A stretch of DNA of 64,000 nucleotides from a virus. A program made the translations under genes and the position numbers. Below are positions 1 to 49,939 of the stretch, one piece after another. The first letter of the stretch is position 1. Every line of letters starts with the position of its first letter. The stretch lies in IMG/VR virus record IMGVR_UViG_3300036761_001580, positions 5,198 through 69,197 of that record; one strand, written 5' to 3'. The notes beneath the pieces are model-generated. The model did no database searches, was not told the origin of the DNA, and saw only the letters and a list, made by a program, of their open reading frames with translations.

Positions 1-1408
1 TGATGGCGGTCGCCGCGGTCCAGTTGATCGTGTGCGTACCGTACCCGAGGATGATGGTCCCTGGAGACTCGGTCGTCGCGATGATCGCCTGGATGAGCGC
101 CTGGAGTCCCGTGCCTCCTGCGGGCACGAAGTACACTCCGTTGCCCTTGATCCAACCGCCCACATCGGTTGCCACGGAGATCTTGGCAGAGACACCCGCA
201 TAGGTGCTCGACGTGATGCTGATGTTCCCGGGGGAAGTGACCGTGATGCCGTTGCCGCCGCTCTGGATGGTGATCCCCGAGGTCGTGTTCGTGCTCCCCA
301 GTGTGAGTGCCTTTACACCCGCGCCGGTCGCTATGTTGATGCTGTTCGAAGTAGCATCGGTACTGAAGTTGATGGTGCCGGTACCCGAGTAGATGCTCAG
401 CCCCACGTTCACCGTGTAGATGCTGCTCAGCGTACCGCTGTCGCCGTAACCAACGATGTTGAAAGCATCTCGACTAGAAATCGAAATGTCGCCGGTACCA
501 CTCTGAATGGTTGTCGAAGAGGTGGTGTTGGTGCTTCCTACAGTGACGGTTTTGACCGCAGCGCCGGCTCCAAAGCGCAAGATAGTGGCCGCGGCGTCAT
601 CACTGATATAGACCCTGCCGGTACCTGTATATATGACCAAGTCGGTGTTGGTTGTGTAGATGTAATTGGTGATCGCCGCACCGGAACTGGAGATGGAGAA
701 GGCTCCGGTGCTTGTGATCACCATACCCGCGGTACCGCTCTGCACGGTGGTGATCGAAGTGGTGTCGATACTTCCGACAGTGACGTTTTTGACGCCAGCA
801 CCAGTACCAAACCTGAGAGGTTGTGCAGTGGCATCATCACCAATGTACAGGCGGCCCGTTCCCGAGTAGATCATCAGGTTGACGTTGGTCGTGTAGATGG
901 AGCTGGCGACAGCACCTGTGATGGTAAAGGCTCCCGTGCTCGTAACGGATGTACCTCCGGTGCCGCTCTGCACGGTGGTGATCGAAGTGGTGTTGGTGCT
1001 CCCTACCGTAACAGTCTTGACCCCTGCACCCGCCCCAAAACGGCAAGTATTCGCCGTAGCGTCATCACCGAGATACAGCCTACCCGTCCCCGTGTAGACC
1101 AGTATGTCTGCGTTGGTCGTGTAGATGGAGCTGGCGGCAGCCCCTGAGATGGTAAAGGCATCCGCAGAGGTCAACTGAATCTGACCCGCTCCCGTCGTAG
1201 TCACCGTGAAATTGTTCGCCAGCTTGGGAGTGAAGGAGATGGCGTCCCCGATGGACCCTCGGGCAAAGCCTCCTGAAGAAAACGAAAGGGTCAGCGCAGC
1301 TGAATGATAGATGCCTGTGGCGGTGTCCCCTGAAAACGCAAAGGATGGGGTTCCCACAGACCCTACCGGGATATGGAGACCGTTCTTTACGACGAACTCG
1401 TTAGCCAT
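1..1408 (-). CDS. Tail fibre-like repeat protein (partial, continues beyond window start)
   Basis: Own minus-strand translation from ATG at 1408 (MANEFVVKNGLHIPVGSVGTPSFAFSGDTATGIYHSAAL...) stays open to position 1. ~76-aa Gly/Thr/Ala-rich tandem units match ~228-bp DNA tandem repeats at ~500-1150. Absent from the ORF track only because it runs off the window. Plus-strand ORF 32..1147 is the Arg/Asp/Gly-rich antisense artefact. Confidence 0.5.
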   Translation of the reverse strand, partial: MANEFVVKNGLHIPVGSVGTPSFAFSGDTATGIYHSAALTLSFSSGGFARGSIGDAISFTPKLANNFTVTTTGAGQIQLTSADAFTISGAAASSIYTTNADILVYTGTGRLYLGDDATANTCRFGAGAGVKTVTVGSTNTTSITTVQSGTGGTSVTSTGAFTITGAVASSIYTTNVNLMIYSGTGRLYIGDDATAQPLRFGTGAGVKNVTVGSIDTTSITTVQSGTAGMVITSTGAFSISSSGAAITNYIYTTNTDLVIYTGTGRVYISDDAAATILRFGAGAAVKTVTVGSTNTTSSTTIQSGTGDISISSRDAFNIVGYGDSGTLSSIYTVNVGLSIYSGTGTINFSTDATSNSINIATGAGVKALTLGSTNTTSGITIQSGGNGITVTSPGNISITSSTYAGVSAKISVATDVGGWIKGNGVYFVPAGGTGLQALIQAIIATTESPGTIILGYGTHTINWTAATAI

Positions 1409-3253: not shown

Positions 3254-4942
3254 CTAGAGCACAGTCGGGATCGTGATGTGTGCCCACAGCGTGTGCGCCG
3301 TAACCGGCCCAACGTCTGTAGCCGCCGCGTAGCCCACGCACTGAACCATGTTTCCACCAGCTATCGGAGCGGTCTTGCTCACCTTTCCTGCTGTAGTGCT
3401 CGTGTAGATCATGTCGCCGCGCGCCCAGGTCTCCGCCGCCGGAGAGGTCACGGCAATGAGGCCGCTGGTCTTCACTTGCACCGGAGTGCCGCCGCCTGCG
3501 GTCGCTCCCGCGAAGCCGAAGCACTTAGCTACCGACGAGGTCGCGGTGGTAGCATCCGCGTTCATGACCTGATCATTCGTGGACGAGCCACCGAGCGCGT
3601 AGCCCAGAGTCGTGCCGGGAGCGGTCACAGTCGCCACGAAGCCACTGCCGGTCGAGTAGGCCGTGTTGACCGCCGAGATCAAGGAGGTGAGGTCACCGAA
3701 GTTCGCCACGAACGTGGTATACTCAACCGCGTTGTTCGCCAACGGCATCGGAGCGGTGTAACCGCCGCCCGCCATGTAGCTGTCGGTGAAGTTGACCTCG
3801 CCGCCTGTCGCGGTGAGGTTCAAGTTGGTGAAGCCCGTGAGGGACAGAGCACCGGCCGCCGTCGACCAGGTGGCCGCAGCCGCCGAGGTCAGGGTCAGAG
3901 CACCGGCCGCCGTCGACCAGGTGGAGCCCGCCGCCGCGGTGATCGTCAGCGCGCCGACCGAGGTCGTGAGGTTCGAAGCGCCGGCCGCGTCGATCTGGAT
4001 GCCGTTGGCCCCCGCGTTGAGGTCGATCCGGATCGCGTTGCCCTCGATCTCGGTGGAGGCCGCGTTGCCGAGCGTGATCGTGCGCGCCGCCGCGCCCGTG
4101 CCGACGTTGATGGCGAAAGCGTTCGCATCGTCACCGATGTTGATCGCCGCACCCGACGAGTTGATCGACAGCGCACCCGCCGCGTCGAGGTCCATCGTAG
4201 TGGACGCCGAAGCCGTGAACGACGTGACGCGGGCTTCGAGGGTCATCGCGTTCGCGCCCGTCGAAGTCAGGGCCAGCCAGTCGGCACCACCGTTGCTCGA
4301 AGCGAACGTGACGGAAGTACCCGCCGTGGCGCTGTCCATGTTGATGAGGAAGGGACCATCCGCAGTCAGGGTGATGATACCCGCGGTTGCCGGAGTACCC
4401 GCATCGTACGACTGCTGCAACGTGTTGCCGGCCGCAGCTCCCGCGGCGACCCACGCAGCACCGTTCCACCATTCGAACGCATTGGCCGCAGTGACGCGAA
4501 TGGCACCGGCCTCACCGACCGAAGTGCTCGGCAGGACCATGACGCCCGTACCGGTGACACGGCTGAACCGGAGGTCCTTCGTGTCGGCGATGGTCATGTC
4601 GACCCGAAGACTGACAATCGTGTCTGTAGCTCCGGCCGTACCGATGTTCACGATGTCGCCCGCCGAGACAAACGCCCCGCCGAGAGTGATGGTATCGCCA
4701 TCACCCCCACCCAGGGTGACGTTACCGTCACCCGTGAGAACACTGCCGTCGATCAGATGCAGCGTACCGGGGATGTTGATCGTTGTGCCCGCAGCACCGA
4801 AATTGATCGTAGTGGCATTGACAGTGCCAATGTCCATCGTCCCGGCAGGAGCGGCGTTGTCGATGTACCGAGCGTTCAGAACGTCGGTAGCCTCGACAAA
4901 GTTTCGAACTATGCCTGAGGGTCTTACGAGTGCCAAAACCAT
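3254..4942 (-). CDS. Tail fibre/structural protein (Gly/Ala/Thr-rich)
   Basis: 562-aa ORF. N-terminal GDGNVTLGGGDGDTITLGG fibre-like repeats. Same strand and block as neighbouring fibre genes. Confidence 0.55.
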   Translation of the reverse strand: MVLALVRPSGIVRNFVEATDVLNARYIDNAAPAGTMDIGTVNATTINFGAAGTTINIPGTLHLIDGSVLTGDGNVTLGGGDGDTITLGGAFVSAGDIVNIGTAGATDTIVSLRVDMTIADTKDLRFSRVTGTGVMVLPSTSVGEAGAIRVTAANAFEWWNGAAWVAAGAAAGNTLQQSYDAGTPATAGIITLTADGPFLINMDSATAGTSVTFASSNGGADWLALTSTGANAMTLEARVTSFTASASTTMDLDAAGALSINSSGAAINIGDDANAFAINVGTGAAARTITLGNAASTEIEGNAIRIDLNAGANGIQIDAAGASNLTTSVGALTITAAAGSTWSTAAGALTLTSAAAATWSTAAGALSLTGFTNLNLTATGGEVNFTDSYMAGGGYTAPMPLANNAVEYTTFVANFGDLTSLISAVNTAYSTGSGFVATVTAPGTTLGYALGGSSTNDQVMNADATTATSSVAKCFGFAGATAGGGTPVQVKTSGLIAVTSPAAETWARGDMIYTSTTAGKVSKTAPIAGGNMVQCVGYAAATDVGPVTAHTLWAHITIPTVL

Positions 4943-4975
4943 GATCTACCTCCCTTTCGAATCGTTTCTGCCCAC

Positions 4976-5305
4976 CTACAGCTCGATGTGGTGGGTCAGG
5001 TTGTTTGCGACGACCGCGAACGGGTTGAAGTCCGCGTAGTCTTCGTGGTTGTACGTCTTGACCGTTGCCTCCAGATCACCCTTGGGCTGCCTCGTGATCT
5101 TCGGGATCTTCGGAGGCCGGTAGCCTTCCAGCTGGATCTTCACGAGCTGGTCCTCGGTCTTGATGATCTCGCCCTCGCGGAGCACGACCTCCCGAGGGCC
5201 GTACTGCGTCGTGATGCGCAGCTTGATGACCGAGTCGCCCTCGAACTGGCTGATGAGCTGTGCCGGGACGCCCGCCAGCGAGATCCTGTACTTCTTGATC
5301 GCCAT
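4976..5305 (-). CDS. Hypothetical protein
   Basis: 109-aa ORF tightly packed in the leftward structural block. Confidence 0.4.
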   Translation of the reverse strand: MAIKKYRISLAGVPAQLISQFEGDSVIKLRITTQYGPREVVLREGEIIKTEDQLVKIQLEGYRPPKIPKITRQPKGDLEATVKTYNHEDYADFNPFAVVANNLTHHIEL

Positions 5306-5317
5306 GCTCTCCTCCTG

Positions 5318-5992
5318 CTAGACCCTTGTCGGCAGGGTCGGGTTCATTACCAAGGTCGCCGCGCTGCGAGCGGTGCCTACCATCTGCTTCACAGTCGCCG
5401 TCACGGGAATGAGCAGCTCGGTGACGAAAGCGCCACCATCCCCGAGGTAGTAGTCCGCACCGGGCACCAGGCCGCCGAACCCAGAGACCTCCGCACGGTA
5501 GGCAACGTCGCACACGAGACCGCCCCCGTAGACGCTGATCACCAGGCCGTCAGCCTTGTTCCCAGGGGTCGCGCCGGCCAAGGCCACCGAGTTCACTGCG
5601 TCGATGTAGGCGAGCTGGCCGGCCACGGTGCCCAGAGGGCAGGAAAACCCATACCCGATGAACCCGGCAGACGCCGCGTACCTCAGATCGTAGTCGTTCC
5701 CCAGCTCGTCCGTGTAGATGATGGCGTAGCTCGGAGCTGTCGTCGTGTCGATCCACAAGGAGGGGACCCCGGGAGGGGCTGGGTTCGCAACGTGACCGAC
5801 CGGATCGAACGCCAGCCCGCCCGTGCTCTGAACCAGGGCGTTGTCCGTGTTCAGCTTGGCTTGGAGGGCCATCACCGCGGAGGCCAAGGAGTTCGGGTGG
5901 TTGGCCCATACGATGTCCACCCCGTCGATTTGTGAGACGAGGAAGTTATCGAGAACCACAGGGTATCCACTGGGAAAGGGCCAAAACGCCAT
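5318..5992 (-). CDS. Hypothetical virion protein
   Basis: 224-aa ORF immediately downstream of a late-type promoter motif at 6022-6056. Confidence 0.45.
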   Translation of the reverse strand: MAFWPFPSGYPVVLDNFLVSQIDGVDIVWANHPNSLASAVMALQAKLNTDNALVQSTGGLAFDPVGHVANPAPPGVPSLWIDTTTAPSYAIIYTDELGNDYDLRYAASAGFIGYGFSCPLGTVAGQLAYIDAVNSVALAGATPGNKADGLVISVYGGGLVCDVAYRAEVSGFGGLVPGADYYLGDGGAFVTELLIPVTATVKQMVGTARSAATLVMNPTLPTRV

Positions 5993-6021
5993 GAAAATAC
6001 CTCGTTGCCTTCAGCACGAGG

Positions 6022-6056
6022 AGTATAACCCGGACACCCGTAGGGATTTTTAAATT
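6022..6056 (-). promoter_or_regulatory. Late-type promoter motif
   Basis: Minus reading caaTTTAAAAATCCctacgggtgtccgggtTATACTcc. Confidence 0.4.
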
Positions 6057-6075
6057 GAAAGGGTACCTGGAGGAG

Positions 6076-6576
6076 CTAACGTGGTCTCTTCGAACCGACG
6101 TACTGGGTCGCAGGGTTGCTTTCCTGGTACTGCTCGGGCTGCTGAGCACCGGGAATCTGGTCGGGCATCACGACCTGCTTGAAGTGATCCCACCAAGAAG
6201 TCGGCTGCCAGGCCTGTTGCTGCGGCTGCTGCGGCTGTTTCGGCTGCCTCTTCTTGCGAGGTGCTGGCGCGGCAGGCTGCCCACCAGCGCCAGCCCCGGG
6301 AACGGCCCCTCCGGACTGCTGAAGCTCCTGCACTTGAGCTTGCAGATCGGCGATGCCCGTTCCCAGGATCTGAAGCTCCTGCATCTGGGCTTGCAGGTTG
6401 CCCAGCCCATCCTCCAGAGCCTTCAACCGACCTTCCGTGTCCGCCACGGGAACGCCCGAAGGACCCTCGGGCATGATGAAGTCACCAGAGGCAGGATCCG
6501 TGGCGTAGTCTTGCGCAAGAACCACTCTTCCGATCCTGCGAATCGCCTGTTCCGACAAACCAAGACCTTTGCGCAT
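6076..6576 (-). CDS. Hypothetical coiled-coil protein (Gln-rich C-terminus)
   Basis: 166-aa ORF downstream of late-type promoter motif at 6596-6628. LQAQMQELQ...LQAQVQELQ heptad repeats. Confidence 0.45.
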   Translation of the reverse strand: MRKGLGLSEQAIRRIGRVVLAQDYATDPASGDFIMPEGPSGVPVADTEGRLKALEDGLGNLQAQMQELQILGTGIADLQAQVQELQQSGGAVPGAGAGGQPAAPAPRKKRQPKQPQQPQQQAWQPTSWWDHFKQVVMPDQIPGAQQPEQYQESNPATQYVGSKRPR

Positions 6577-7639: not shown

Positions 7640-9901
7640 CTACCAGTTCCCCCTACCGGTAGCGACCGTCCCGATGGCCGTCGTGTCGGTGGCCGCCATA
7701 CGCTTTCTTATATTCATACGCCGCTTCATGTTCGCCTGGCTGTCCACAATAGAATCCTGGATGAGATGGTGGACGCCGACGTAGCAGCGCGCGAGATCGT
7801 CCGAGTCCCGGCCGCGAACAGTGCCCTTCTTCGGGTTGAAGAACTTCTTCAGGTCCGGAGACCGCGTGAGCTTGAGCAGCTCGACCAGCGCGACGGACTG
7901 CCCTTGCATCTGCTCCTGCGGGGTCGCGATCACGAGGGCCCCCGTGTCCGTGATGCCCACGGTGTCCTCCGCATGTGGCGGAAGGAGCTTCACCCGGCCG
8001 TTGTAGGTCATCCGCAGGAAGTTCATGAAGTGGACCGGCCCGAGCTGGACCTTCGTCGTGATGATGCCCATCGTCCGGAGCTGCTGGATCGTGGACTCGG
8101 CGTTCCAGTGGTCGAACGCCACCCCGGCGATCCGGACCTTCTTCTGGACCTCGGCGATGATGTTCACGACCGAGTTGAACCAGATGTCCCGCTCCCGGGT
8201 CGGAACGATGCGCACGGAGAAGTCGATCACCGTGCACAGCATCTCGTTCATGTGATCGAACGGACGAGCGCCGGCCTTGTTCGAGGCGGTGAAGTAGTTC
8301 GCCATGCGGCGGCGGTTCTTCTGAGCCTCCATGATCATGTCGCCGTCGGCACCGACCGGCATGTTCGCGCCGAGGAACGTCCCCAGGTCCTCGGAGAAGA
8401 CGACCCCGTACTCGTCGACAGGCTCCATCCTGCCGCGGCCCACAGGAGCCCTCTGGCGAATGAGGGGCTCTCCGTCGGGGCCAGTCTCGTCGGACTCGAA
8501 GTCATCCACGTTGAGCCACTCGGAGTGCGCGCACACGAGCCCGAACGAGTCCCAGTTGAGCCCGGCGTCACCGAACAGGTAGTAGGGGTTGACGTGGTTC
8601 AGCTTGCACTCCTCGACCTCCATGCCGATGTACTTCTTGCCCGTCGTGTCCTCGAAGAACGAGGGCCGGAAGCGGGCGATGGGATCGCGGTCGAAGTCGA
8701 TGCTCTTCCAGAACCGCTTCGGGTCGTCCACGTAGGGGCTCTCGGCGTTCGGGGGGTTCGCCCCGAAGTCGCGCTCCGCGCCCATGGCGTCCTTCACGTA
8801 GTCGTCGTCGAAGACGTGCCGCGGCATCTGCGGGTTGAAGTCCCAGGTCGCGCCCTTCCAGTAGTACGTCCTCGGCAGGATCCCCTCGGCCGCCTTGTTG
8901 TAGTGCTCCATCGCCGGGTCGTCCTGCGAGATCGGCGAGGTCACGTTCAGCATCATCCCCAGGAAAGACGGAAGCTCGTTCTGCATCACCGCGGCGCGGA
9001 CCGTGGCGAGGGACTGGTTCAGCACGCGGTACAGCTCCTTCGCGGAGCGGCTGCCCTCGGTGTCCGCGAGACGAGCCCACTCGTCGATGGACGCCATGAT
9101 GCGCGTCTTGCCGGCGACACCGGCCGAGTCGCTGGCGATGCGGTTGTAGCGCACGCGCGCCCAGCCATCCAGGATGGCGTCGGCGTTGGTGTTGTACATC
9201 CAGCGGTCGACTTCCGAGGGTTGCTGAGACTCGAAGGCCTGGACCCACGAGGAGTAGCGCTGAATCCACGGAGAGTTCTTCCGCATCTCGCGGTACTTGG
9301 CGTAGATGGTCTGCTGCGCCTGGGTCGCGGTCGACGCGGAGAAGGTGACCTCGAACCACTCACTCTTCTCCTGCCTCAGCATCCTCTGGAGGTGGCCCTG
9401 GCCGAACATGGCCCGGCTCGAAATGAAGTTCTCGAAGTACCCTCCGATGTGAGCGCCCAGGTACGATTTCCCCGAGCGCATGCCGGCCAGGATGATCGTC
9501 TCGTTGTAGGCCTGGAGGATGCCGTCATGGAGCAGCTCGCGCTGCGTGCTGCCGCACCGCGGGCACACGAAGTCCGTCTCGCTCTCGACCCAGCAGAGCA
9601 GCACCTCGGACTCCAGGTACATCCTGCTCTTGCCCCAGCAGTCGACCGCCTCGGGCTTCATCGAGTTGCAGATCGGACAGCGCACCCCGAACAGGTCGCG
9701 CATGATCTGGTACTGGCGGGTGTGGTCGAACGTCGTGGGCACGTTCCAGTAGTCGAGCCCGGTCACCCACTCGCAGATGTTCGGAGCCGGCCGACGGAGG
9801 TACTCGACCTCGGGACCGGTCAAGCCGCTCGACGTCCTCGACTCCAGCGCGGTGTCGATTCTCCTGGACAGGGAATCGAGAAATCCAGTGCCTTCGGTCA
9901 T
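7640..9901 (-). CDS. terL: Terminase large subunit (N-terminal Zn-ribbon insert, ATPase plus nuclease)
   Basis: 753-aa ORF. P-loop AGMRSGKSY, Walker-B-like RIMASIDEWA, acidic C-terminal nuclease-like region (FGDAGLNWD...). Size and position are typical of a large terminase. Confidence 0.6.
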   Translation of the reverse strand: MTEGTGFLDSLSRRIDTALESRTSSGLTGPEVEYLRRPAPNICEWVTGLDYWNVPTTFDHTRQYQIMRDLFGVRCPICNSMKPEAVDCWGKSRMYLESEVLLCWVESETDFVCPRCGSTQRELLHDGILQAYNETIILAGMRSGKSYLGAHIGGYFENFISSRAMFGQGHLQRMLRQEKSEWFEVTFSASTATQAQQTIYAKYREMRKNSPWIQRYSSWVQAFESQQPSEVDRWMYNTNADAILDGWARVRYNRIASDSAGVAGKTRIMASIDEWARLADTEGSRSAKELYRVLNQSLATVRAAVMQNELPSFLGMMLNVTSPISQDDPAMEHYNKAAEGILPRTYYWKGATWDFNPQMPRHVFDDDYVKDAMGAERDFGANPPNAESPYVDDPKRFWKSIDFDRDPIARFRPSFFEDTTGKKYIGMEVEECKLNHVNPYYLFGDAGLNWDSFGLVCAHSEWLNVDDFESDETGPDGEPLIRQRAPVGRGRMEPVDEYGVVFSEDLGTFLGANMPVGADGDMIMEAQKNRRRMANYFTASNKAGARPFDHMNEMLCTVIDFSVRIVPTRERDIWFNSVVNIIAEVQKKVRIAGVAFDHWNAESTIQQLRTMGIITTKVQLGPVHFMNFLRMTYNGRVKLLPPHAEDTVGITDTGALVIATPQEQMQGQSVALVELLKLTRSPDLKKFFNPKKGTVRGRDSDDLARCYVGVHHLIQDSIVDSQANMKRRMNIRKRMAATDTTAIGTVATGRGNW

Positions 9902-10195: not shown

Positions 10196-10984
10196 TCACC
10201 TGATTTTGTACTTCTTGTAGACCTCGTCCAAAATCGAGGGAATCGACGCCTTCAAGGGCTCCCCGATCTTGTAGGCCACCATCCTCGCCAGCTTCTCGCC
10301 CCACTCCGGGTTCGCGTACTGCTGGTGCAGGTTCGACCGCAATTCTACCATGGAATCCTGAATTGCGTTCATAACAACTTCAACGACCCGCTCCAGAGCG
10401 TCCCGGAGGGCAGTGCCGGCGACCGCCTGCTTAGCCTGAAGGACCGCCAACTCCTTCTTCATCGCCATCTGCTCCCGGATCAGCTTCTGGAAAATCTTCA
10501 CCTCCTCCAGGTTCACGATAGGGGGTGCCTTGCCGGAGCCCCGAAGCTCCGCAGCTCTCGAAGACAGGGTCTTCTCGTAGCTTTCGAGCTGCACCACCGA
10601 GGCGGAGATCAGGGACTCCAGCCGGAGGTAGTCGTCCATCTCCGACGCCGCCGAGGCCTGGAGCGCCATCTTCGCGGGGTTCGCCCTGGCCTCGGGGGAG
10701 AACATGTTCTGCGCCGCGATGTACGCCTCGACCTGGGTGAAGTCCGTGATGTGCATCTTGAAGTGCTTGACGATGCCGTTGGTGGAGAACGTGGGCAGCA
10801 GCTCCCAGTTGTTCTCCTCCCGGGTGATGTTCAGGATCTCCGCCCGCTGGTTGAGCCACGTCAGCGCCCGCGCCCGGCTGATGCGCTCGATGATGACCTT
10901 GCGGTGCAGCTCCTTCCACAGATCGGGGTCCAGCCGCATCAGGATGCAGATCTTGCAGCGAGGCTGGAGAGACGTCAGTTCCAC
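10196..10984 (-). CDS. Putative DNA-binding protein (possible terminase small subunit)
   Basis: 262-aa ORF upstream of terL. N-terminal CKIC / basic region, rest coiled-coil. The assignment is positional only. Confidence 0.35.
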   Translation of the reverse strand: MELTSLQPRCKICILMRLDPDLWKELHRKVIIERISRARALTWLNQRAEILNITREENNWELLPTFSTNGIVKHFKMHITDFTQVEAYIAAQNMFSPEARANPAKMALQASAASEMDDYLRLESLISASVVQLESYEKTLSSRAAELRGSGKAPPIVNLEEVKIFQKLIREQMAMKKELAVLQAKQAVAGTALRDALERVVEVVMNAIQDSMVELRSNLHQQYANPEWGEKLARMVAYKIGEPLKASIPSILDEVYKKYKIR

Positions 10985-11066: not shown

Positions 11067-11628
11067 CTACGGCTGGGGGCTGGGAGCCGGAGGTTGCGCC
11101 TTGCGGGCCGCAACGTCTGCGACCCGCTGTAACAGTGGCTCCAAGGCCGCTGCGTCGAGCAGCGGGGGCTGTTTTGCCTGGTCTGTTTTTAATTCTATTT
11201 TTTCCAGGCGAACGTTGTTGGCTTCGAGGTTGTACGACAGACCCGACAGGTACCAGACGAAGGCGACCCCCGAGGTGAGCAGCACGAGGATGAGCGCTCC
11301 GAGCCCCCGGGCGTACCACTTGTACATGTCGGAGATGCTCTTCTGCACCTCCTTCACGTTGCTCTGGACCTCTACCACGGTCTTCTGGGTGTCCTGCGCC
11401 TCGCGCTGAGCCTCCTTGGCGAGACCCTCGATGCCCGAGAAGCGCGAGTCCTGTGCGCAGGCGTGAGGCTTCCTGGTCTCGATCTCGACTCGTTCGATGT
11501 CCGCACCCAGTGCTTCCATTTTTGTCTCCACGACCTCTTTCGAGGCCTTCTTGTCTAGCTCTTTCCAGACCATCTTGAAAGCGCTCGGTCCCTCGACTGG
11601 GGTGTCGTACGTGTGTTCTCTCTCCACC
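11067..11628 (-). CDS. Membrane-anchored coiled-coil protein
   Basis: Start taken at ATG 11628 (GAGGAactgcATG), not the ORF-track upstream Met, which would overlap the promoter motif at 11678-11709. One TM helix, LGALILVLLTSGVAFVWYL. Confidence 0.4.
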
Positions 11629-11677
11629 ATGCAGTTCCTCGATTCAAGAGTAGTACCCCTCACGCAATGTACTACAA

Positions 11678-11709
11678 GATCTGTTGGATTTCTAAATCCT
11701 GCGAACCCC
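11678..11709 (-). promoter_or_regulatory. Late-type promoter motif (TTTAGAAATCC-N-TAGTACA)
   Basis: Minus-strand reading cgcaggaTTTAGAAATCCaacagatcttgTAGTACAttg. Member of a ~9-copy motif family upstream of leftward structural genes. Confidence 0.45.
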
Positions 11710-11879
11710 TGCCGAGCCCTGCCAATACTGCGGAATCCGTATTCCCCCCTCTGGAACCGGAATTTGAACTGCTCTTCGAGCCGTATAAGGTAAGTCGTAC
11801 GGACCATTCGGATAAATCTTGGTAAATAGACTTATGAGATTGGATCAAACTCTGTAGGATGATCCCGATCCCAAGTAGT

Positions 11880-11917
11880 TCCTGTACATAGAAAAAGATC
11901 CTAAGGGGTGACTAGTA
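11880..11917 (+). promoter_or_regulatory. Possible late-type promoter on plus strand (TAGAAAAAGATCC-N11-TAGTATG)
   Basis: Resembles the late motif in plus orientation. Followed by a 34-codon ORF/palindrome and a terminator at 12146-12178. Confidence 0.25.
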
Positions 11918-11921
11918 TGAC

Positions 11922-11982
11922 GAAGATCCTGAAGATCCTGAAGAATTCCGAAGGAATTCTGAAAGGATCTGAAGGATCTGAG
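11922..11982. repeat. ~60-bp near-perfect palindrome
   Basis: gaagatcctgaagatcctgaagaattc cgaagg gaattctgaaaggatctgaaggatctg. Two GAAGATCCTG units mirrored by two GGATCT units around a GAATTC core. Confidence 0.7.
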
Positions 11983-12145
11983 GAATACCCCCGGAAAAAA
12001 CGCAAAAACAGGCAAAAACAGGGTTGAAAAGATAGAAATACTGTAAAAACAGCCTAAAAGCAAGAACACCAGTAGTACCTCAGCAGAAAAGCGCAAGAAT
12101 ACCCCCGCCGCTTGACTCCCTGCACTTGATGGTTACGTGCGTTTT

Positions 12146-12178
12146 GGGCCTTAAAAAGGCCCTTGATTCCTTGTTTTC
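12146..12178 (+). terminator. Rho-independent terminator-like hairpin (GGGCCTTaaaaAGGCCC + T-rich tail)
   Basis: gggccttaaaaaggccc followed by ttgattccttgttttcg. Confidence 0.45.
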
Positions 12179-12261
12179 GGGCGGTTACTCAGGAGAGCTG
12201 CCCTCTTGAGGGTCGAAATTGGGGGTCAGCTTCCCCTTGACTTCCAACCCTATGAAGGTAT

Positions 12262-12476
12262 GCCACTAACCGTCGGCAAGGTATAGTCAAGAGGCTAGTT
12301 CGCTATAAATCATTGAACAATTTTGACAGTATTTCGGGTTATGAAACGTATAACTTCTAATAAAATAGTAACCATAGGTGCAACCACCAGGAAGGTATAG
12401 TCAAGACCTCTTTGAAGGGTTCAAATCTAGGGCATTTTCAACTTCCAGAGGGGGTACCAAGGGGGTCTTGACCATA
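12262..12476. promoter_or_regulatory. Three copies of a 17-bp site GTCTTGAC(T/C)ATACCTT flanking an AT-rich stretch
   Basis: Copies at ~12266-12283 (-), ~12393-12409 (-) and ~12458-12475 (+). An AT-rich putative unwinding element at 12300-12380 lies between them. Confidence 0.5.
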
Positions 12477-12499
12477 CCTTGGCGGTGGTTAAAACCAAG

Positions 12500-12715
12500 G
12501 TTCAAGGTAGGGTTCAAGGTACCTTTGAAGGTTTCCAAAGGTAGGGTTCAAGGTAGGGTTGAAAGTAGGGTTCAAGGTACCTTGAAGACCTTCAAGGTAG
12601 GGTTCAAGGTCTTGAAGGTACCTTGGAGACCTTCAATGTAGGGTTCAAGGTACCTTAAAAGTCTTCAAGGTAGGGTTCAAGGTACCTTGAAGGTCTTCAA
12701 GGTAGGGTTGAACTC
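12500..12715. repeat. Iteron array: ~7 tandem ~30-bp units GGTAGGGTTCAAGGTACCTTGAAGNCCTTCAA
   Basis: Directly visible. Each unit contains the palindrome CAAGGTACCTTG. ORFs 12378..12641 and 11845..12096 here are artefacts of the repeats. Confidence 0.75.
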
Positions 12716-12730
12716 TAGGACGTGGAGGCC

Positions 12731-13018
12731 CTAGTCGGCTACGCTTTCAGTGGTCTTGAAGAACCCGCGCAAGCAAGGCTCACAGTCCATCAGGAGCCTC
12801 GCATAGAACGCTCGGTGGGCGTTGGGTATCTTGAAGGGCTTGTTGTTATCCGCGGTGACCTTGCGGCTGTGCCACCGGAGAACCTCTATGAGAGAGGCTA
12901 TGCCGTAGTTCTTGTACCCCTCAGCCTTGGCTTCCAGAGCCATTGCTCTGAGCTGCTCGTAGACCCAAGGGTTCTTCTTGTGGTACTCCAAAAAGGCGCT
13001 AGACAATGGAGTCTTCAT
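12731..13018 (-). CDS. Hypothetical protein
   Basis: 95-aa ORF, first gene of the leftward block to the right of the iteron region. Confidence 0.4.
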   Translation of the reverse strand: MKTPLSSAFLEYHKKNPWVYEQLRAMALEAKAEGYKNYGIASLIEVLRWHSRKVTADNNKPFKIPNAHRAFYARLLMDCEPCLRGFFKTTESVAD

Positions 13019-17067: not shown

Positions 17068-17077
17068 TCATCTGAAT

Positions 17078-17161
17078 GGCCTGACTTTCACTTGGCAGGC
17101 CTACTATGGCTCGACTTTCACTTCCCGAGCCTTGTGTGGCTTGACTTTCACTTCCCAAGCC
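17078..17161. repeat. Three tandem 24-bp hairpin units (30-bp period) with compensatory stem variation
   Basis: ggCCTGactttcacttggCAGGcc, ggCTCGactttcacttccCGAGcc, ggCTTGactttcacttccCAAGcc. Confidence 0.7.
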
Positions 17162-25967: not shown

Positions 25968-25996
25968 ACTATAGATCAGCCTGTGCGAGATGTCAA
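25968..25996 (-). promoter_or_regulatory. Sigma70-like promoter TTGACA-N17-TATAGT
   Basis: Minus reading ctcTTGACAtctcgcacaggctgatcTATAGTatc. Confidence 0.55.
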
Positions 25997-26935: not shown

Positions 26936-28744
26936 CTACGGGATGGGACCGATTGCCGCTGCGATCCTGTCGAGAGCAGCCGCCACGGTCGCGGGAACGG
27001 GCCCCACCCAGTTGCCGGGGACCGCGGGAATGTACGGAACGCCCTGAGCTGGAACGTACCTGCGCGCGGGTCCGAGCGTGGCAAGGTTCGAGCCCGGGAG
27101 AACGTAGCCGTTCAGGATGGAGTAGTCGGTCGTGTTCCCGAAGCACGAGTTCCCGGACAGCTCGCAAATGGAGCCCGCCTCAGCGTAGATGCCTCGGTTG
27201 CAGAGGGTGCAGATGTTCCCGACCGCCAGGACCCGGGCAATGGCCGGCGCGACACCGCCGTCGATGGAGATGCCTTCATCGGTGCACTCGACGCAGCGGT
27301 TGTTGAGCACGACCACGTCGCAGTCGTCGTCACAGTCGATGCCCTCGATGCACTTGTAGGCGTCGTTTTCGATGACGTACCCTGTGTTCCGGACAGCGAC
27401 CGGGAGCCCAATGGAGTCGATCTTGAGCCCCTCGCCGTTCCCAGTGAACGACTGGATCCGATTCCCTTCCACCCGGAAGTTCGTGCAGTTCTGGAGCATG
27501 AACCCCCGGGAGTTCAGAGCCGCACCATCCACGTAGCAGCCGTAGAAGATCGGTTTGTTGAACCCTCGCAAAAGGAGTGCCGCGCCCTCGGTGCCGTCCT
27601 TGCACGCCTTGTAGAACGAGCAGGAGACGAACGAGATGCCGTCCGACATCTCGGCTGGCTGTGGCGGCTTATCGTAGCTGTCGGGGCCGACGCTCCGATG
27701 GAAGGACATGAGCACCGCAGAGCCGGCGGTGACCTCCTCGAAGTGCAGGTTGTGGAAGATGAGATCCTGGCACTTGGAGCCCTGATCACGGAACGTGATC
27801 CCTGCGCCCTGGGCGTTGTTGTCGTCGGTCGTGTAGGCCGTGAACCCGAACCCGCTGACGATGTGATCGTGTGCCCCATCCACGATCTTGATGCACTTCG
27901 TCCCCGTCAAGAGGGGTCCGTAGCCGATACCTGCGCGGATGGTGAGCACCATGGTCGACGGCAGGGTGATCGGGCTGTAGGTCGCGTTCGTCCGGACCTC
28001 GATCACGTCTCCGTCCGCCGCGGCGGCGATGGCCGTCTGGAGGTCACCGGCCCCCACCCCGGACACGATCACGGTCGCTGGAGCCGCGAGCGCTGCATCG
28101 ATCTTCCCCAGGACCACCGAGAGGTCTGGCAGGGTGGCGGGGGGCACCACGAACTCCAACCCGCCTTCAGCTGCGTTGACTCGAACCAGCTTCAAGGACT
28201 GACCCACGTAGGTACCCGGGACATCCGAGAGGTCCGTGAAGGCCCCCGCGCCGCCGCCCCCGACCCCGAACTCCAAGCCGTTCTCTGCCGCCTTGACCTT
28301 GACGAACTTCCCGCCTTGGAGGGCGTAGGCGGCTGGGACATCGGTGAGGTCTGTGAACGCAGCAGCTCCACCGCCCCCGACCCCGAACTCCAAGCCGGTC
28401 GCGGTCGGGTTGACCTTGACGACCTTCCCCGCCTGCCCAACGTAGGACTGCGGGACGTCGGTCAGCTTGGTGAACTGTCCACCACCCACGATCTCCGAGG
28501 TGTCCCTCTCCGCCAGGGACCTCACCACGTCCGCGGCCAGGACGTCTCCATCCATCGTGACGATGGCCTTGCTGGACTCTACGAAGTTCGCCAGGTTGTA
28601 CAGGAACTCGGAGTCCTCCTGAACTTCGTGCAGGAGCACCGAGTCTGGATGGAGGGGATCCACCTTTACCCGGACGTGAAGTCCTTCGATGGAAAGGTGC
28701 GCACTGCCCACGACAGTGATGATGAGGGTCTTGATCGTCGTCAT
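26936..28744 (-). CDS. Tailspike with right-handed beta-helix (pectate-lyase-like) domain
   Basis: 602-aa. N-terminal FT(D/K)L(T/S)DVP..Y.GQ.GK.V.V....GLEF repeats (x3), then NNRCVECTDEGISIDGG / GNRIQSFTGNGEGLKID beta-helix-like repeats. Confidence 0.55.
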   Translation of the reverse strand: MTTIKTLIITVVGSAHLSIEGLHVRVKVDPLHPDSVLLHEVQEDSEFLYNLANFVESSKAIVTMDGDVLAADVVRSLAERDTSEIVGGGQFTKLTDVPQSYVGQAGKVVKVNPTATGLEFGVGGGGAAAFTDLTDVPAAYALQGGKFVKVKAAENGLEFGVGGGGAGAFTDLSDVPGTYVGQSLKLVRVNAAEGGLEFVVPPATLPDLSVVLGKIDAALAAPATVIVSGVGAGDLQTAIAAAADGDVIEVRTNATYSPITLPSTMVLTIRAGIGYGPLLTGTKCIKIVDGAHDHIVSGFGFTAYTTDDNNAQGAGITFRDQGSKCQDLIFHNLHFEEVTAGSAVLMSFHRSVGPDSYDKPPQPAEMSDGISFVSCSFYKACKDGTEGAALLLRGFNKPIFYGCYVDGAALNSRGFMLQNCTNFRVEGNRIQSFTGNGEGLKIDSIGLPVAVRNTGYVIENDAYKCIEGIDCDDDCDVVVLNNRCVECTDEGISIDGGVAPAIARVLAVGNICTLCNRGIYAEAGSICELSGNSCFGNTTDYSILNGYVLPGSNLATLGPARRYVPAQGVPYIPAVPGNWVGPVPATVAAALDRIAAAIGPIP

Positions 28745-29386: not shown

Positions 29387-29908
29387 CTAGTAGTCACCAG
29401 AGAGGATTTTGTCCACGACGTTCACGATGTGAAGGGCCCCTGCTTGAGGGGTAGTGCACTTCTTTAAGTCGGCCAAGATGTTGTCCGGAAAGTCTCGAAT
29501 GAACTCGTCCAGCTTCTTCAATTTAATGAAGTTGTTGAGCTTCTTTAGAACGAGGGCCTCAGGTACTATTTGATGCGCTACAGGTAGAATCTCTGAAGCC
29601 GCTGCGCTCAGGGTGTATCCACGAGCTTGAGCTTTGCCGGTGTGTCTCAACCAGCCCTTGCGATACAAGGCTTTCAGATGGTCAACCACTCCGTTCAAAG
29701 ATGCGATCCCTGCGGCTCTTCCGATCTCCCGAAGAGTAGGTGGTATGCCTTCTTGAACAATGTGGTTGGTAATGATGTCGAGAATCACCTTTTGCCTATC
29801 CGTCAACCTTTCCAGATTTGACTTCTTCTCCTCCATGAGCTTCTCCAATTGATCTTTTTTTCTGGACTTCCTCTTTGGCATATGTCCCTCCCGGTCTTCG
29901 TTCTGCAA
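29387..29908 (-). CDS. LexA-like winged-HTH DNA-binding protein (no S24 peptidase domain)
   Basis: LTDRQKVILDIITNHIVQEGIPPTLREIGRAAGIASLNGVVDHLKALYRKGWL closely resembles the LexA N-terminal DNA-binding domain. Gene is markedly AT-richer than its surroundings. Confidence 0.55.
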   Translation of the reverse strand: MQNEDREGHMPKRKSRKKDQLEKLMEEKKSNLERLTDRQKVILDIITNHIVQEGIPPTLREIGRAAGIASLNGVVDHLKALYRKGWLRHTGKAQARGYTLSAAASEILPVAHQIVPEALVLKKLNNFIKLKKLDEFIRDFPDNILADLKKCTTPQAGALHIVNVVDKILSGDY

Positions 29909-33563: not shown

Positions 33564-33592
33564 TATATAGGTCAGCTTGGATGGGTTGTCAA
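33564..33592 (-). promoter_or_regulatory. Sigma70-like promoter TTGACA-N17-TATATA
   Basis: Minus reading atcTTGACAacccatccaagctgaccTATATAtgc. Confidence 0.5.
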
Positions 33593-34377: not shown

Positions 34378-34730
34378 TAGTGCTCGGGCAGGCGAACCTT
34401 GATCGGGGGGAGCCCGTTGTTCTTCCACGCCAGGAGGGTACCGATGATGACCTCCTCCTTGCCGGCATCAGGAAACGCCGCTCGGGACTTGACCGCCAGG
34501 CCCACGAATAGCCTTCGCACCTTGACCCTCTTCCAGGCCCACCCGAGTAAAGAAAAGAGGTACATTCCGCAGCAGCCACCGACCACAGCCGCAGTGGCCC
34601 CGAAGAGGTTCACCAGGACGATACTGAGAATCGTGAAAAGGATCCAAGGCCACGTCAGGCTGGAGGGACTATCCAGCGGAAGCTCTATCCGCGCCGCCAG
34701 CTCCTCCGCGAAGGCGTCCAGGTCAACCAT
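34374..34730 (-). CDS. Small membrane protein
   Basis: 118-aa. Two hydrophobic helices (WILFTILSIVLVNLF / CGMYLFSLLGWAW). Confidence 0.35.
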   Translation of the reverse strand: MVDLDAFAEELAARIELPLDSPSSLTWPWILFTILSIVLVNLFGATAAVVGGCCGMYLFSLLGWAWKRVKVRRLFVGLAVKSRAAFPDAGKEEVIIGTLLAWKNNGLPPIKVRLPEHY

Positions 34731-35265
34731 CGACCCGCGCCTCCCCCGTCACGATCCTCCGGATCTGCATGGAAGAGACTTTGAACTTCTTCACGAGACT
34801 CGCGTAGGGCTCACCCTCACCTCGCCGTCTCCGAATCTCGGAAACCTGCTTCGAGGTGAGCTTGACATGTGGGTGGTGCTCCCCGTGAACAGTGTTCGCT
34901 CGCAGCTCTTCCAGAGGGGGCACCTTCGTGGGGTATTGGCTCTTCCCCAGAAGAGCGGACCGGACGGTCGACACCGTACAGTCGTACTTGGCCGCCAGCT
35001 CGGTGGCCGTCGCACCCTTGCGATAGAGCTTGCGCATCTCCCCAACGATCTTCCCGTCGAGCGCCTTGTTCCCCCGGGCCTCGGAAGCGAGGCACGCCTT
35101 CATCAGCTCGGGGGCGACGTCCTTGTAGGTGATGTACCGCACGGCTTGTCGAATCGCTTCTTTTGAGAACCCGTACTTGGCCGCGAGCGCGGTCTGGGTC
35201 TCTCCGGCGATGAACGCCTTCCGAATCTTCACCACAACTGCTTCCGACTGAATCATCTGGATCAT
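34723..35265 (-). CDS. Multi-HTH DNA-binding regulator
   Basis: Three HTH-like segments (ALAAKYGFSKEAIRQAV, ELAAKYDCTVSTVRSAL, ASLVKKFKVSSMQIRRIV). Promoter at 35292-35320. Confidence 0.45.
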   Translation of the reverse strand: MIQMIQSEAVVVKIRKAFIAGETQTALAAKYGFSKEAIRQAVRYITYKDVAPELMKACLASEARGNKALDGKIVGEMRKLYRKGATATELAAKYDCTVSTVRSALLGKSQYPTKVPPLEELRANTVHGEHHPHVKLTSKQVSEIRRRRGEGEPYASLVKKFKVSSMQIRRIVTGEARVDG

Positions 35266-35291: not shown

Positions 35292-35320
35292 AATATAGTC
35301 ATGCCTGGAGGTGAAGTCAA
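35292..35320 (-). promoter_or_regulatory. Sigma70-like promoter TTGACT-N17-TATATT
   Basis: Minus reading ggtcTTGACTtcacctccaggcatgacTATATTacc. Confidence 0.5.
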
Positions 35321-48418: not shown

Positions 48419-48447
48419 TTGACTTTCCCATCGACAGTGTCTATATA
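48419..48447 (+). promoter_or_regulatory. Sigma70-like promoter TTGACT-N17-TATATA
   Basis: cctcTTGACTttcccatcgacagtgtcTATATAggt. Confidence 0.55.
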
Positions 48448-49911: not shown

Positions 49912-49939
49912 TTGACTTTCCCCCAGGCATGACTATATA
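49912..49939 (+). promoter_or_regulatory. Sigma70-like promoter TTGACT-N16-TATATA
   Basis: cctcTTGACTttcccccaggcatgacTATATAgtg. Confidence 0.55.

What the first reader, a model, noticed from the sequence alone, without database searches (positions are those of the whole stretch)
11810..12720. 0.9-kb non-coding control region: 60-bp palindrome, AT-rich stretch, three 17-bp sites and ~7 tandem 30-bp iterons (origin or pac-site candidate)
Read from sequence: this is the only long ORF-free stretch in the window. GC drops sharply here.

It contains:
- a near-perfect 60-bp palindrome at 11922-11982;
- a terminator-like hairpin at 12146-12178;
- three copies of GTCTTGAC(T/C)ATACCTT in mixed orientation around an AT-rich 80-bp segment (12300-12380);
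- about seven head-to-tail units GGTAGGGTTCAAGGTACCTTGAAGNCCTTCAA (12500-12715), each with an internal 12-bp palindrome.

Established: iterons plus an AT-rich unwinding element plus flanking binding sites are the classic architecture of theta/RC replication origins. Repeats close to terminase genes can also be packaging (pac) or terminal-repeat signals.

The region lies between the terminase/packaging genes and the next late operon.
Basis: partly seen in the sequence, partly recalled or inferred. Interest (0 to 1): 0.6.

Follow-up and report, generated by a model that had tools for sequence, protein, structure and literature searches.

The report
Repeat-rich control region upstream of terminase
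A 1.1-kb gene-free stretch of an uncultivated ~212-kb phage carries about 20 evenly phased copies of a short DNA word, an easily melted segment and a hairpin-forming palindrome just upstream of the DNA-packaging genes; it is a real, conserved protein-docking site, most likely for starting genome packaging, though a replication origin is nearly as likely.

Summary
Window 11631-12730 is a true non-coding region in a high-GC huge phage; a 212-kb contig is its close relative. It holds a tandem array, three 26-bp sites around the least stable 80 bp of the 64 kb, phased A-tracts and a three-tier palindrome. Two details fail. The small hairpin at 12146-12178 is neither significant nor conserved. The region is not the only long ORF-free stretch, because 56.6-59.1 kb is a CRISPR array next to a Cas12m gene.

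Relatives give the main new evidence. The array is built from AAGGT/ACCTT pentamers, enriched about 10-fold and phased at about 10.75 bp. These words persist in relatives with only 60% protein identity, where the array follows an intrinsic terminator. Palindromes keep their pairing through compensatory changes. The motifs are single-locus, even in the 212-kb contig.

So this is a DNA-level nucleoprotein assembly site beside a hairpin- or cruciform-forming element. Its function is not settled. I favour a terminase recognition (pac/cos-type) region (0.35) because of its conserved position upstream of the TerL block. An iteron origin (0.28) and a late-operon operator array (0.17) remain live. No small terminase, initiator or partition gene could be identified nearby.

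The parts
12487..12716 (+). Tandem array of AAGGT/ACCTT pentamers. It holds 15 forward and 7 reverse copies, organised as 12-bp units GGTTCAAGGTAG and 32-bp units GGTAGGGTTCAAGGTACCTTGAAGNCCTTCAA. It starts 15 bp after the stop codon of the upstream gene.
   Evidence: TRF gives period 32 x 4.2 copies and period 12 x 6.9 copies. Repeat families D1-D3. TTCAAGG 10 times here against 0.11/kb elsewhere. Pentamer map and best period of 10.75 bp. The same words occur in L004, L075, L076 and L077.
12466..12491 (+). 26-bp site 3: TCTTGACCATACCTTGGCGGTGGTTA. It forms a 45-nt imperfect inverted repeat with site 2.
   Evidence: (I1, I3). Conserved in L004, degenerate in L075.
12381..12407 (-). 26-bp site 2: GTCTTGACTATACCTTCCTGGTGGTT on the minus strand.
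   Evidence: (D5). Conserved in the window, L004 and L075.
12296..12375 (.). AT-rich segment, GC 0.28. It is the least stable 80 bp of the 64-kb window.
   Evidence: Nearest-neighbour stability profile, z = 4.9. Identical in L004, but its centre is replaced by GC-richer sequence in L075.
12228..12292 (-). Most conserved block of the region. It contains 26-bp site 1 (12267-12292) and the adjacent GGTTAGTGGCATACCTTCATAGGGTTGGAAGTCAAGGGGAAG, which includes a fourth, oppositely oriented CTTGACT at 12236-12242.
   Evidence: Nearly invariant in the three-way alignment of window, L004 and L075. Site statistics.
12146..12178 (+). Small hairpin GGGCCTT-AAA-AAGGCCC followed by a T-rich tail. Probably not functional.
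   Evidence: z = -0.85. Not called by the terminator scan. Not conserved.
11995..12060 (+). Helically phased A-tracts, predicting an intrinsic bend. A-runs start at 11995, 12004, 12014, 12027, 12045 and 12056.
   Evidence: The only chain of three or more A-tracts at 9-12-bp spacing in 64 kb. Largely conserved in L004, partly in L075.
11924..11979 (.). Three-tier interrupted palindrome with 7+7+8 bp (22 bp) of pairing. It can form a hairpin or cruciform.
   Evidence: DNA fold -17.2 kcal/mol, z = -7.4. L004 keeps a 7+7+8 geometry with different arm sequences, and L075 is nearly identical. The positional analogue in L076/L077 is a 21-23-bp hairpin with three compensatory pair changes.
11843..11978 (.). 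GATC cluster: 8 sites in 150 bp, partly inside the palindrome arms.
   Evidence: Densest 150-bp GATC window in 64 kb, 8 against a next-best of 6 and a mean of about 1.2. Modest significance.
11657..11699 (-). Conserved promoter-like block GGATTTAGAAATCCAACAGATCTTGTAGTACATTGCGTGAGGG. It is followed by the RBS GAGGAA (11635-11640) and the start codon (11628-11630).
   Evidence: Conserved in the window, L004 and L075. The analogous TTTTTAAATT...TATGAT block occurs in L076/L077. Reading it as a promoter is inference.
11067..11630 (-). First gene of the downstream block: a 187-aa coiled-coil and transmembrane protein.
   Evidence: Translation, gene call, homologues in L075, L076, L077, L003 and L012. 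A non-homologous TM protein replaces it in L004.
10196..10984 (-). p262: an uncharacterised 262-aa protein with a Zn-binding-type N-domain (C10, C13, H27, H74, H78) followed by coiled coils. It is a candidate reader of the repeats, or a small-terminase analogue; neither is proven.
   Evidence: Alignment A6. AF2 pLDDT 89. No Pfam, PHROG, PDB or BFVD match. It is the fastest-evolving protein of the block.
7640..9901 (-). Large terminase subunit (TerL).
   Evidence: phrog_17415, E = 1.4e-38. tblastn hits to annotated jumbo-phage terminases.
12731..13018 (-). Upstream 95-aa gene (phrog_13625). Present in the window phage, absent in L004.

Best explanation
The region is a single-copy, cis-acting DNA site on which a clade-specific DNA-binding protein assembles.

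SHOWN
- About 20 AAGGT/ACCTT half-sites sit on one face of the helix, with a period of about 10.75 bp, over about 230 bp.
- Next to them, three or four 26-bp CTTGAC-type sites bracket the most easily melted DNA of the window.
- Phased A-tracts and a 22-bp hairpin- or cruciform-forming palindrome follow.
- The whole region lies between the end of one late transcription unit and the promoter of the operon that contains the large terminase.

INFERRED MECHANISM
This is the packaging-initiation (pac/cos-type) region.
1. A multimeric recognition protein wraps or coats the phased array. This protein may be p262 or another small-terminase analogue.
2. The intrinsic bend and the meltable segment help to shape the complex.
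3. TerL is recruited and makes the first cut nearby, possibly at the extruded palindrome.
4. Occupancy of the site may also gate transcription of the terminase operon, as proposed for SPP1/SF6.
For: - Real and non-coding.
- Motifs confined to this locus in 64 kb. In IMG/VR they are multi-copy only in this lineage, and occupy one locus in the 212-kb contig.
- AAGGT/ACCTT at 25-33 per kb in the non-coding region against about 2.5 per kb elsewhere, in all five clade members. AAGGTACCTT occurs only there.
- Best period 10.75-11 bp in all five arrays.
- The words are conserved although TerL, p262 and the TM protein are only 81%, 60% and 60% identical in L076.
- In L076/L077 the array lies after a strong terminator hairpin (-25 kcal/mol plus a U-run) and before the promoter-like block. 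It is therefore untranscribed DNA, not UTR.
- A long AT-rich non-coding region with its own repeats and palindrome sits at the same place upstream of the TM/p262/p96/TerL block, even in L003 and L005 (TerL 73% and 64%).
- TerL identity.
- Phased A-tracts are unique in the window.
- Palindrome geometry is conserved with compensatory changes.
- Established model for comparison: the SPP1/SF6 pac has sets of direct repeats and intrinsically bent DNA that wrap a ring of HTHs spaced about one helical turn apart, and it overlaps the terminase promoters (PMC4737164).
Against: - No small terminase is identified. p262 has no TerS-like fold or family, and its DNA binding is unproven.
- The array lies 0.85-1.1 kb from the first gene and 2.6 kb from the TerL start. 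That is farther than in characterised pac/cos sites.
- The flanks are syntenic on both sides, so linkage to TerL is not exclusive.
- There are no data on physical termini.
- The 212-kb contig does not end here, though that is uninformative if the genome is permuted.
- Contig breaks at the array are explained well enough by repeats and copy-number heterogeneity.
- The iteron plus easily-melted-DNA layout is equally the textbook origin layout.
Confidence: 0.35

Rival explanations
1. Iteron-type replication origin. An initiator protein oligomerises on the phased AAGGT iterons and the CTTGAC-type sites and bends the DNA with help from the A-tracts. It then opens the adjacent 80-bp AT-rich segment so that helicase and primase can load.
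For: - Iteron array within 100 bp of the least stable 80 bp of the window (z = 4.9; the four least stable 80-bp windows all lie in the region).
- Sites flank the AT-rich segment in direct and inverted orientation.
- Helical phasing.
- Single copy.
- Phased A-tracts and a palindrome, as in lambda ori (own knowledge).
Against: - No Rep, DnaA-like, helicase or primase gene in the 64-kb window. The neighbours are late or packaging genes.
- No GC-skew inflection at 12 kb; the skew simply follows coding strand.
- The centre of the AT-rich segment is replaced by GC-richer DNA in L075, and L076/L077 have no comparable AT-rich block beside their arrays.
- The replication module lies outside the window, so an initiator cannot be excluded.
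Confidence: 0.28
2. Transcription-control region for the late (terminase) operon. The array is an operator or enhancer-like bank of sites for a phage repressor or activator of the RHH, omega, Arc or multi-HTH type. This protein insulates the upstream unit and times expression of the downstream block. The palindrome is an RNA processing or stability hairpin.
For: - The region lies between a terminator (L076/L077) and a conserved promoter-like block.
- The phage's strong sigma70-like promoter class is absent here, so this operon needs another mode of activation.
- The CTTGACT sites mimic the -35 element and its flank but have no -10.
- The phage encodes a triple-HTH sigma70_r4/Mor-like protein, an RHH-looking ORF and a LexA-DBD protein.
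- Short subsites in mixed orientation with helical phasing are typical of RHH operators (own knowledge).
- The palindromes pair over about 22 bp, the size of an RNase III substrate.
Against: - Twenty or more half-sites placed 0.85-1.1 kb upstream of the start codon is far more than other operon boundaries in the same genome need (for example 158 bp at 17 kb).
- The motifs are unique to this one locus, so this is not a regulon.
- No regulator gene is adjacent.
Confidence: 0.17
3. Centromere-like or genome-organising site. A ParR, omega, TubR or ParB-type protein forms a segrosome-like filament on the array to position or partition the large genome.
For: - The array grammar resembles R1/pSK41 parC, pSM19035 omega heptads, tubC 12-mers and F sopC: phased short repeats, 10- to 16-bp palindromes inside longer tandem units, and variable copy number (comparison from own knowledge).
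- A small ParB/Srx-like ORF exists at 36158-36526.
Against: - No ParA, ParM or TubZ motor and no HTH-ParB in the 64-kb window.
- Nothing indicates a plasmid-prophage lifestyle.
- The ParB-like ORF is 24 kb away and lacks an HTH domain.
Confidence: 0.08
4. A non-coding RNA gene or genes, or functionless repeat expansion in a permissive intergenic gap.
For: - The core folds somewhat better than shuffles (z = -3.3 and -2.2).
- The palindromes show compensatory changes.
- Copy number varies between relatives.
Against: - No Rfam family at gathering or permissive thresholds.
- The fold signal comes from the site 2/site 3 inverted repeat.
- The array words and their phasing are conserved at 60% protein identity, which argues against junk.
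- The array follows a terminator in L076/L077.
Confidence: 0.07

Closest known systems
SPP1/SF6 pac region (pacL-pacC-pacR), recognised by the small-terminase ring
   Same: - Sets of short direct repeats and intrinsically bent DNA upstream of, and overlapping the promoters of, the terminase genes.
- Binding units spaced about one helical turn apart.
- Single copy per genome (PMC4737164).
   Different: - The region here is about four times longer.
- The words are sharply defined and deeply conserved (AAGGT), whereas SF6 TerS binds almost non-specifically.
- A separate gene lies between the site and the candidate recognition protein.
- No TerS fold was found.
Phage lambda cosB (R3-I1-R2-R1) and P1 pac (hexamer clusters flanking the cut site)
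   Same: - Three sites in mixed orientation around a bendable AT-rich segment, upstream of the terminase genes, as in lambda.
- Clustered GATC-containing repeats arranged symmetrically about a centre, as in P1.
(Both comparisons are from own knowledge.)
   Different: - No cohesive-end or cut-site evidence.
- The distances are larger.
- There is an additional 230-bp phased array.
- Any dependence on methylation is unknown.
Iteron origins (lambda ori; P1 oriR/incA; iteron plasmids)
   Same: - Tandem, helically phased iterons with internal dyad symmetry next to an AT-rich unwinding element.
- Bent DNA and a palindrome.
(Own knowledge.)
   Different: - No initiator gene in cis or nearby.
- The locus is embedded among late and packaging genes.
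- The AT-rich element is not conserved across the clade.
- The half-site is only 5 bp, in mixed orientation.
Centromere and operator arrays read by RHH or other small proteins (pSM19035 omega heptads, R1/pSK41 parC, tubC, F sopC)
   Same: - Many short subsites in direct and inverted orientation at about 10-11-bp phasing.
- Palindromes nested in longer tandem units.
- Copy-number variation.
(Own knowledge.)
   Different: - No partition motor gene.
- No adjacent gene for a centromere-binding protein.
- The context is a phage late region.

Membership tests
Terminase recognition site (pac/cos) | Lies next to the terminase genes | tested here: met
   TerL is at 7640-9901(-), the last large gene of the operon that starts 1 bp after the region. 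The placement is conserved in L004, L075, L076, L077, L003 and L005.
Terminase recognition site (pac/cos) | Bound by the phage's small terminase | tested here: inconclusive
   No TerS is recognisable. The positional candidate p262 has a confident model (pLDDT 89) but no TerS-like fold or family. Binding cannot be tested with these tools.
Terminase recognition site (pac/cos) | Coincides with the physical genome end or the start of the packaging series | not testable with these tools
   No reads are available. Contig ends cluster here, but repeats explain most of them. The 212-kb contig does not end here.
Terminase recognition site (pac/cos) | Single copy; repeated binding motifs plus intrinsic bend | tested here: met
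Iteron-type replication origin | Three or more phased direct repeats (iterons) | tested here: met
Iteron-type replication origin | Adjacent AT-rich DNA-unwinding element | tested here: inconclusive
   Met in the window and L004: it is the least stable 80 bp, z = 4.9. The centre is replaced in L075, and there is no comparable block beside the arrays of L076/L077.
Iteron-type replication origin | Cognate initiator gene in cis or nearby | tested here: not met
   The bulk Pfam scan of 93 ORFs found no Rep, DnaA, helicase or primase in 64 kb. The rest of the ~212-kb genome was not seen.
Iteron-type replication origin | Strand-composition (GC-skew) switch at the locus | tested here: not met
   Cumulative skew is flat across 1-39 kb and follows coding strand elsewhere. 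This is a weak test for phages.
Partition centromere (parS/parC/tubC/sopC) | Adjacent partition NTPase and centromere-binding protein genes | tested here: not met
   No ParA, ParM or TubZ in the window. The only candidate is a small ParB/Srx-like ORF 24 kb away.
Intrinsic terminator (for the hairpin at 12146-12178) | Stable GC-rich stem followed by a U-tract, conserved in relatives | tested here: not met
   z = -0.85. Not called by the scan. The sequence is replaced in L004 and L075.
This phage's sigma70-like promoter class (CTTGACTT-N-CAGGCATGACTATATA) | -35 TTGACT, a 17-nt spacer and -10 TATATA, co-oriented with a downstream gene | tested here: not met
   The three sites share only CTTGACT and its 5' flank. 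None has a -10 at 16-18 nt.
Known RNA families (Rfam 15) | Covariance-model match | tested here: not met
   No hit at gathering threshold. Only chance miRNA-like hits with E > 0.09 at permissive settings. No tRNA.

The most novel reading that the evidence does not exclude
The array is the nucleation site of a previously undescribed DNA-wrapping protein family of huge phages. In this reading the protein forms a segrosome-like filament on about 20 phased 5-bp half-sites and couples genome organisation, late-operon switching and terminase recruitment at one locus. That would make it a combined 'packaging centromere', distinct from the classical TerS-pac, Rep-iteron and ParB-parS systems.
Probability: 0.1. 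Interest if true: 0.7.

Novelty: new member of a known kind. Interest (0 to 1): 0.42.

Why it matters
Cis-acting sites such as origins, pac sites and centromeres are essentially unmapped in uncultivated huge phages. This locus offers a sharply defined site that is conserved across its clade. It has a simple word (AAGGT, and AAGGTACCTT as the palindrome), helical phasing, and a short list of candidate reader proteins.

If it is the packaging site, it would identify the missing recognition subunit for this TerL clade. It would also give a handle for engineering or transducing with such phages. If it is the origin, it would be one of the first origins defined for this group.

Either outcome can be tested directly with existing metagenome reads and a few recombinant proteins. 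The finding is still an ordinary kind of element, and its function remains unproven.

Tried and rejected
- DNA similarity to INPHARED phages, near and distant modes: no match.
- TerL scan of genome contigs for prophages or host clues: nothing.
- Metagenome and viral scans with TerL and p262: only the same few contigs. The A6 alignment was too diverse for a locus scan.
- Rctr197k, the nearest annotated record at 36% TerL identity, has no non-coding gap upstream of TerL, so it offers no deeper synteny.
- General promoter motif: rejected. The real promoter class has a -10 that the three sites lack, and none of that class lies in the region.
- ncRNA: no Rfam or tRNA support. The fold signal is explained by the inverted sites.
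- Coding: rejected on GC3 and on frame-breaking indels between relatives.
- CRISPR spacers against all fetched loci and the window: only 15-nt chance hits.
- Literature search for AAGGTACCTT: only cloning primers.
- GC skew as an origin test: uninformative or negative.
- A formal pair count on the window-lineage palindrome was not run. L004 re-registers the arms, so a column-wise count would mislead.
- Walking to the ends of the 212-kb contig to look for a DTR was considered and dropped. A DTR or circular assembly would not locate the physical ends.
Full report
**Context**

The window has 60.6% GC. Its genes run on the minus strand from about 39 kb to 1 kb and on the plus strand from 39 to 57 kb.

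The large terminase is at 7640-9901(-) (phrog_17415, E = 1.4e-38). Its nearest annotated relatives are metagenomic 'Virus Rctr197k' (36% identity) and jumbo phages of the PaBG/Lu11/Erwinia type.

A 211,982-bp IMG/VR contig (L004) carries a 98% identical TerL, and its flanking DNA is 94-95% identical. The window therefore comes from a huge-phage lineage. Several public contigs are 100% identical to the window across the region (L015, L016, L017).

Mostly yes.

- Limits. The non-coding stretch is 11631-12730. The downstream gene starts at ATG 11630 rather than 11807. Independent gene calls give 187 aa, and homologues in L075, L076 and L077 start at the same methionine.
- Coding potential. ORFs inside the region have GC3 of 0.44-0.54 against 0.72-0.92 for genes. 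Relatives differ by frame-breaking indels.
- Composition. GC falls to 0.41-0.47.
- Palindrome. It is a three-tier interrupted hairpin at 11924-11979 with 7+7+8 bp of pairing (z = -7.4).
- The three '17-bp' sites. They are exact or near-exact at 12278-12292, 12392-12406 and 12466-12480. At up to three mismatches there are 6 matches against 0.58 expected. They are really about 26 bp long.
- AT-rich segment. Sites 1 and 2 bracket 12296-12375, the least stable 80 bp of the whole 64 kb (z = 4.9). The four least stable 80-bp windows of the window all lie inside the region.
- A-tracts. The only chain of helically phased A-tracts in the window is at 11995-12018, with further tracts up to 12060.
- Array. 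It is less regular than described. It has about 4.2 units of 32 bp at 12565-12709, preceded by 12-bp and 22-34-bp units from 12487.

Two statements fail.

- The hairpin at 12146-12178 is not distinguishable from shuffles. The terminator scan does not call it, and it is not conserved.
- The region is not the only long ORF-free stretch. 56623-59067 is a CRISPR array.

**What the relatives add**

Searches with TerL and with the 262-aa neighbour (p262) recovered three sequence variants of the same lineage and four more distant relatives.

- Same lineage: the window, L004 and L075.
- About 60% lineage: L076 and L077 (TerL 81%, p262 60%).
- Distant: L003 (TerL 73%, p262 33%) and L005/L012 (TerL 64%, p262 26%).

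All of them keep a 0.5-1.1-kb AT-rich non-coding gap at the same place, directly upstream of the block TM-protein / p262 / p96 / TerL.

Within the window lineage, conservation is patchy.

- Site 1 with its downstream 45 bp, and site 2 with its flank, are almost invariant.
- The array words are conserved, but copy number differs (window > L004).
- The centre of the AT-rich segment is replaced in L075.
- The hairpin zone is replaced.
- The A-tracts, the palindrome and a promoter-like block near the gene are kept.

**The array is a conserved, phased protein-binding element**

L076 and L077 cannot be aligned with the window in this region. Even so, their arrays are made of the same words (AAGGTACCTT, TTGAAGGTC).

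- The pentamer AAGGT/ACCTT occurs at 25-33 per kb in the non-coding region of all five clade members, against about 2.5 per kb elsewhere.
- The 10-mer AAGGTACCTT occurs 4-5 times in the region of the window, L076 and L077, and nowhere else in their sequence, including the rest of the 64-kb window.
- Same-orientation pentamers have a best period of 10.75-11 bp in every array. That places 20 or more half-sites on one face of the helix.
- In L076/L077 the array follows a strong terminator hairpin (-25 kcal/mol, z about -4, then UUUGUCUU) and precedes the promoter-like block. It is therefore not part of either flanking transcript.
- The 15-mer site and the 16-mer palindrome are multi-copy only in this lineage across IMG/VR. 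The 15-mer site matches at a single locus in the 212-kb contig.

I regard 'DNA-level assembly site for a sequence-specific, cooperatively binding protein' as well supported, at roughly 0.8.

**The palindromes pair**

- L004 keeps a 7+7+8 three-tier geometry with partly different arm sequences and a shifted centre.
- The positional analogue in L076/L077 is a 21-23-bp hairpin (z = -10 and -8.5). The two differ by three double, pair-preserving substitutions and by none that disrupt pairing.

Covariation of this kind favours base pairing over recognition by a symmetric protein. The pairing could be a DNA cruciform, a DNA hairpin or an RNA hairpin. All versions pair over about 22 bp.

**What the three sites are not**

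A looser pattern revealed the phage's real promoter class: cctCTTGACTTyCCCC..CAGGCATGACTATATA. It occurs at six intergenic positions, each co-oriented with the downstream gene. None of these lies in the region.

The three sites, and a fourth partial one at 12236, share only the -35-like CTTGACT and its 5' flank. They have no -10. They are a separate element specific to this locus.

**Candidate readers**

None is adjacent to the array apart from p262.

p262 is the fastest-evolving protein of the block, and the AAGGT words are found only where p262 is at least 59% identical. That is compatible with co-evolution but is not specific evidence for it.

Elsewhere the window encodes three other DNA-binding candidates:
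- a triple-HTH sigma70_r4/Mor/Cbp1-like protein (34723-35265)
- an RHH-looking 63-aa ORF (48454-48645)
- a LexA-DBD protein (29387-29908)

No Rep, DnaA, helicase, primase, ParA or integrase is present in the 64 kb.

**Choosing a function**

For packaging:
- The position is conserved at the head of the TerL operon, even in relatives whose repeat words differ.
- The grammar of phased sites plus bent DNA matches the SPP1/SF6 model. In that model a ring of HTHs spaced one helical turn apart wraps intrinsically bent pac DNA that overlaps the terminase promoters (PMC4737164).
- A pairing palindrome could serve as a cutting target.

For an origin:
- The layout of iterons next to the most meltable DNA is classic.

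Against an origin:
- There is no nearby initiator.
- There is no skew inflection.
- The AT-rich element is not conserved in L075, L076 or L077.

For a regulatory array:
- The region lies between a terminator and a promoter.
- The sites mimic a -35 element.

Against a regulatory array:
- The scale and the distance from the gene are excessive.
- The motifs occur at only one locus.

Contig ends cluster at the region: L016 at 12715, L002 at 12613, L075 at about 12591, L017 at 11869, L003 inside its own gap, and the 140-kb L012 about 330 bp upstream of its gap. The first three are explained by the repeats themselves. L012 is not explained.

My estimates are: packaging-initiation region 0.35, origin 0.28, operator array 0.17, centromere-like 0.08, RNA or junk 0.07.

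**Novelty and interest**

The element belongs to a familiar kind, the iteron-type cis-acting site. It has a new word, an unknown reader, and sits in a little-studied huge-phage clade. It can be tested with existing reads and a few proteins. Interest is moderate.

Noticed in passing
window 56623-59067 and 59109-60941(-): Phage-encoded CRISPR-Cas system. The array has about 32 copies of a 36-bp repeat, GTCGGGACTCCTAAGCCGTCCCGCAGGCACTGCAAC, with spacers mostly 35-38 bp. A variant repeat, GTCGAGACTCCTAAGCCGTCTCGCAGGCGTTGAAAC, carries compensatory stem changes. A 610-aa Cas12m (type V-M) lies directly next to the array, with E = 7e-70 to solved Cas12m 23vw_A. No spacer matches any fetched locus or the window itself.
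   Followed up: partly
window 35293-35320(-), 60998-61025(-), 48419-48446(+), 49912-49939(+), 33565-33592(-), 25969-25996(-): A strongly conserved sigma70-like promoter class, cctCTTGACTTyCCCC..CAGGCATGACTATATA. It lies in intergenic gaps and is co-oriented with the downstream genes. One copy sits just upstream of the Cas12m gene and one upstream of the triple-HTH gene.
   Followed up: partly
window 17076-17161: Three tandem 30-bp units, each a hairpin GGCTTG-N12-CAAGCC that contains CTTGACTTTCACTT. They lie in a 158-bp gap between two minus-strand genes. In the minus sense they are followed by a terminator-like GCCCTCTttcgAGAGGGCTTT.
   Followed up: no
window 34723-35265(-), 29387-29908(-), 48454-48645(+), 36158-36526(-): DNA-binding candidates:
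- a 180-aa protein with three HTH repeats (Sigma70_r4/Mor/HTH_7, with weak similarity to Cbp1)
- a LexA-DBD protein
- an RHH-looking 63-aa ORF
- a 122-aa ParB/Srx-like ORF
.
   Followed up: partly
edges of the region: window 12731-13018 and 11067-11630; L004 7394-7404 and 8342-8839: Gene turnover at both borders of the non-coding region. The 95-aa phrog_13625 gene is present in the window phage but absent from the 212-kb relative. In that relative the first downstream TM-protein gene is replaced by a non-homologous TM protein.
   Followed up: partly
L016 1822-3006(-) (ENA contig k141_4309456): This contig is 100% identical to the window near the region. Elsewhere it carries a 394-aa IS605 OrfB/TnpB gene inserted between structural genes, and some neighbouring genes have different lengths. 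This suggests strain-level mobile-element activity.
   Followed up: no
window 4700-5300 and 5700-6200 compared with L004: These stretches are 100% identical between the window and the 212-kb relative, against a background of about 94% identity. This suggests recent recombination.
   Followed up: no
window 730-1159 and 28217-28462: Long tandem duplications that appear to lie inside coding sequence. One has a 228-bp unit in 1.9 copies. The other has a 117-bp unit in about 2 copies, within the 602-aa tail-like gene.
   Followed up: no
L012 (Ga0180432_10000083, 139,861 bp): This 140-kb contig ends about 330 bp upstream of its version of the non-coding region, inside the p82-like gene and with no repeat at the break. 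IMG/VR holds only its terminal 7.5 kb as viral (L005). The cause is unexplained: it could be a physical end, an assembly artefact or provirus trimming.
   Followed up: no
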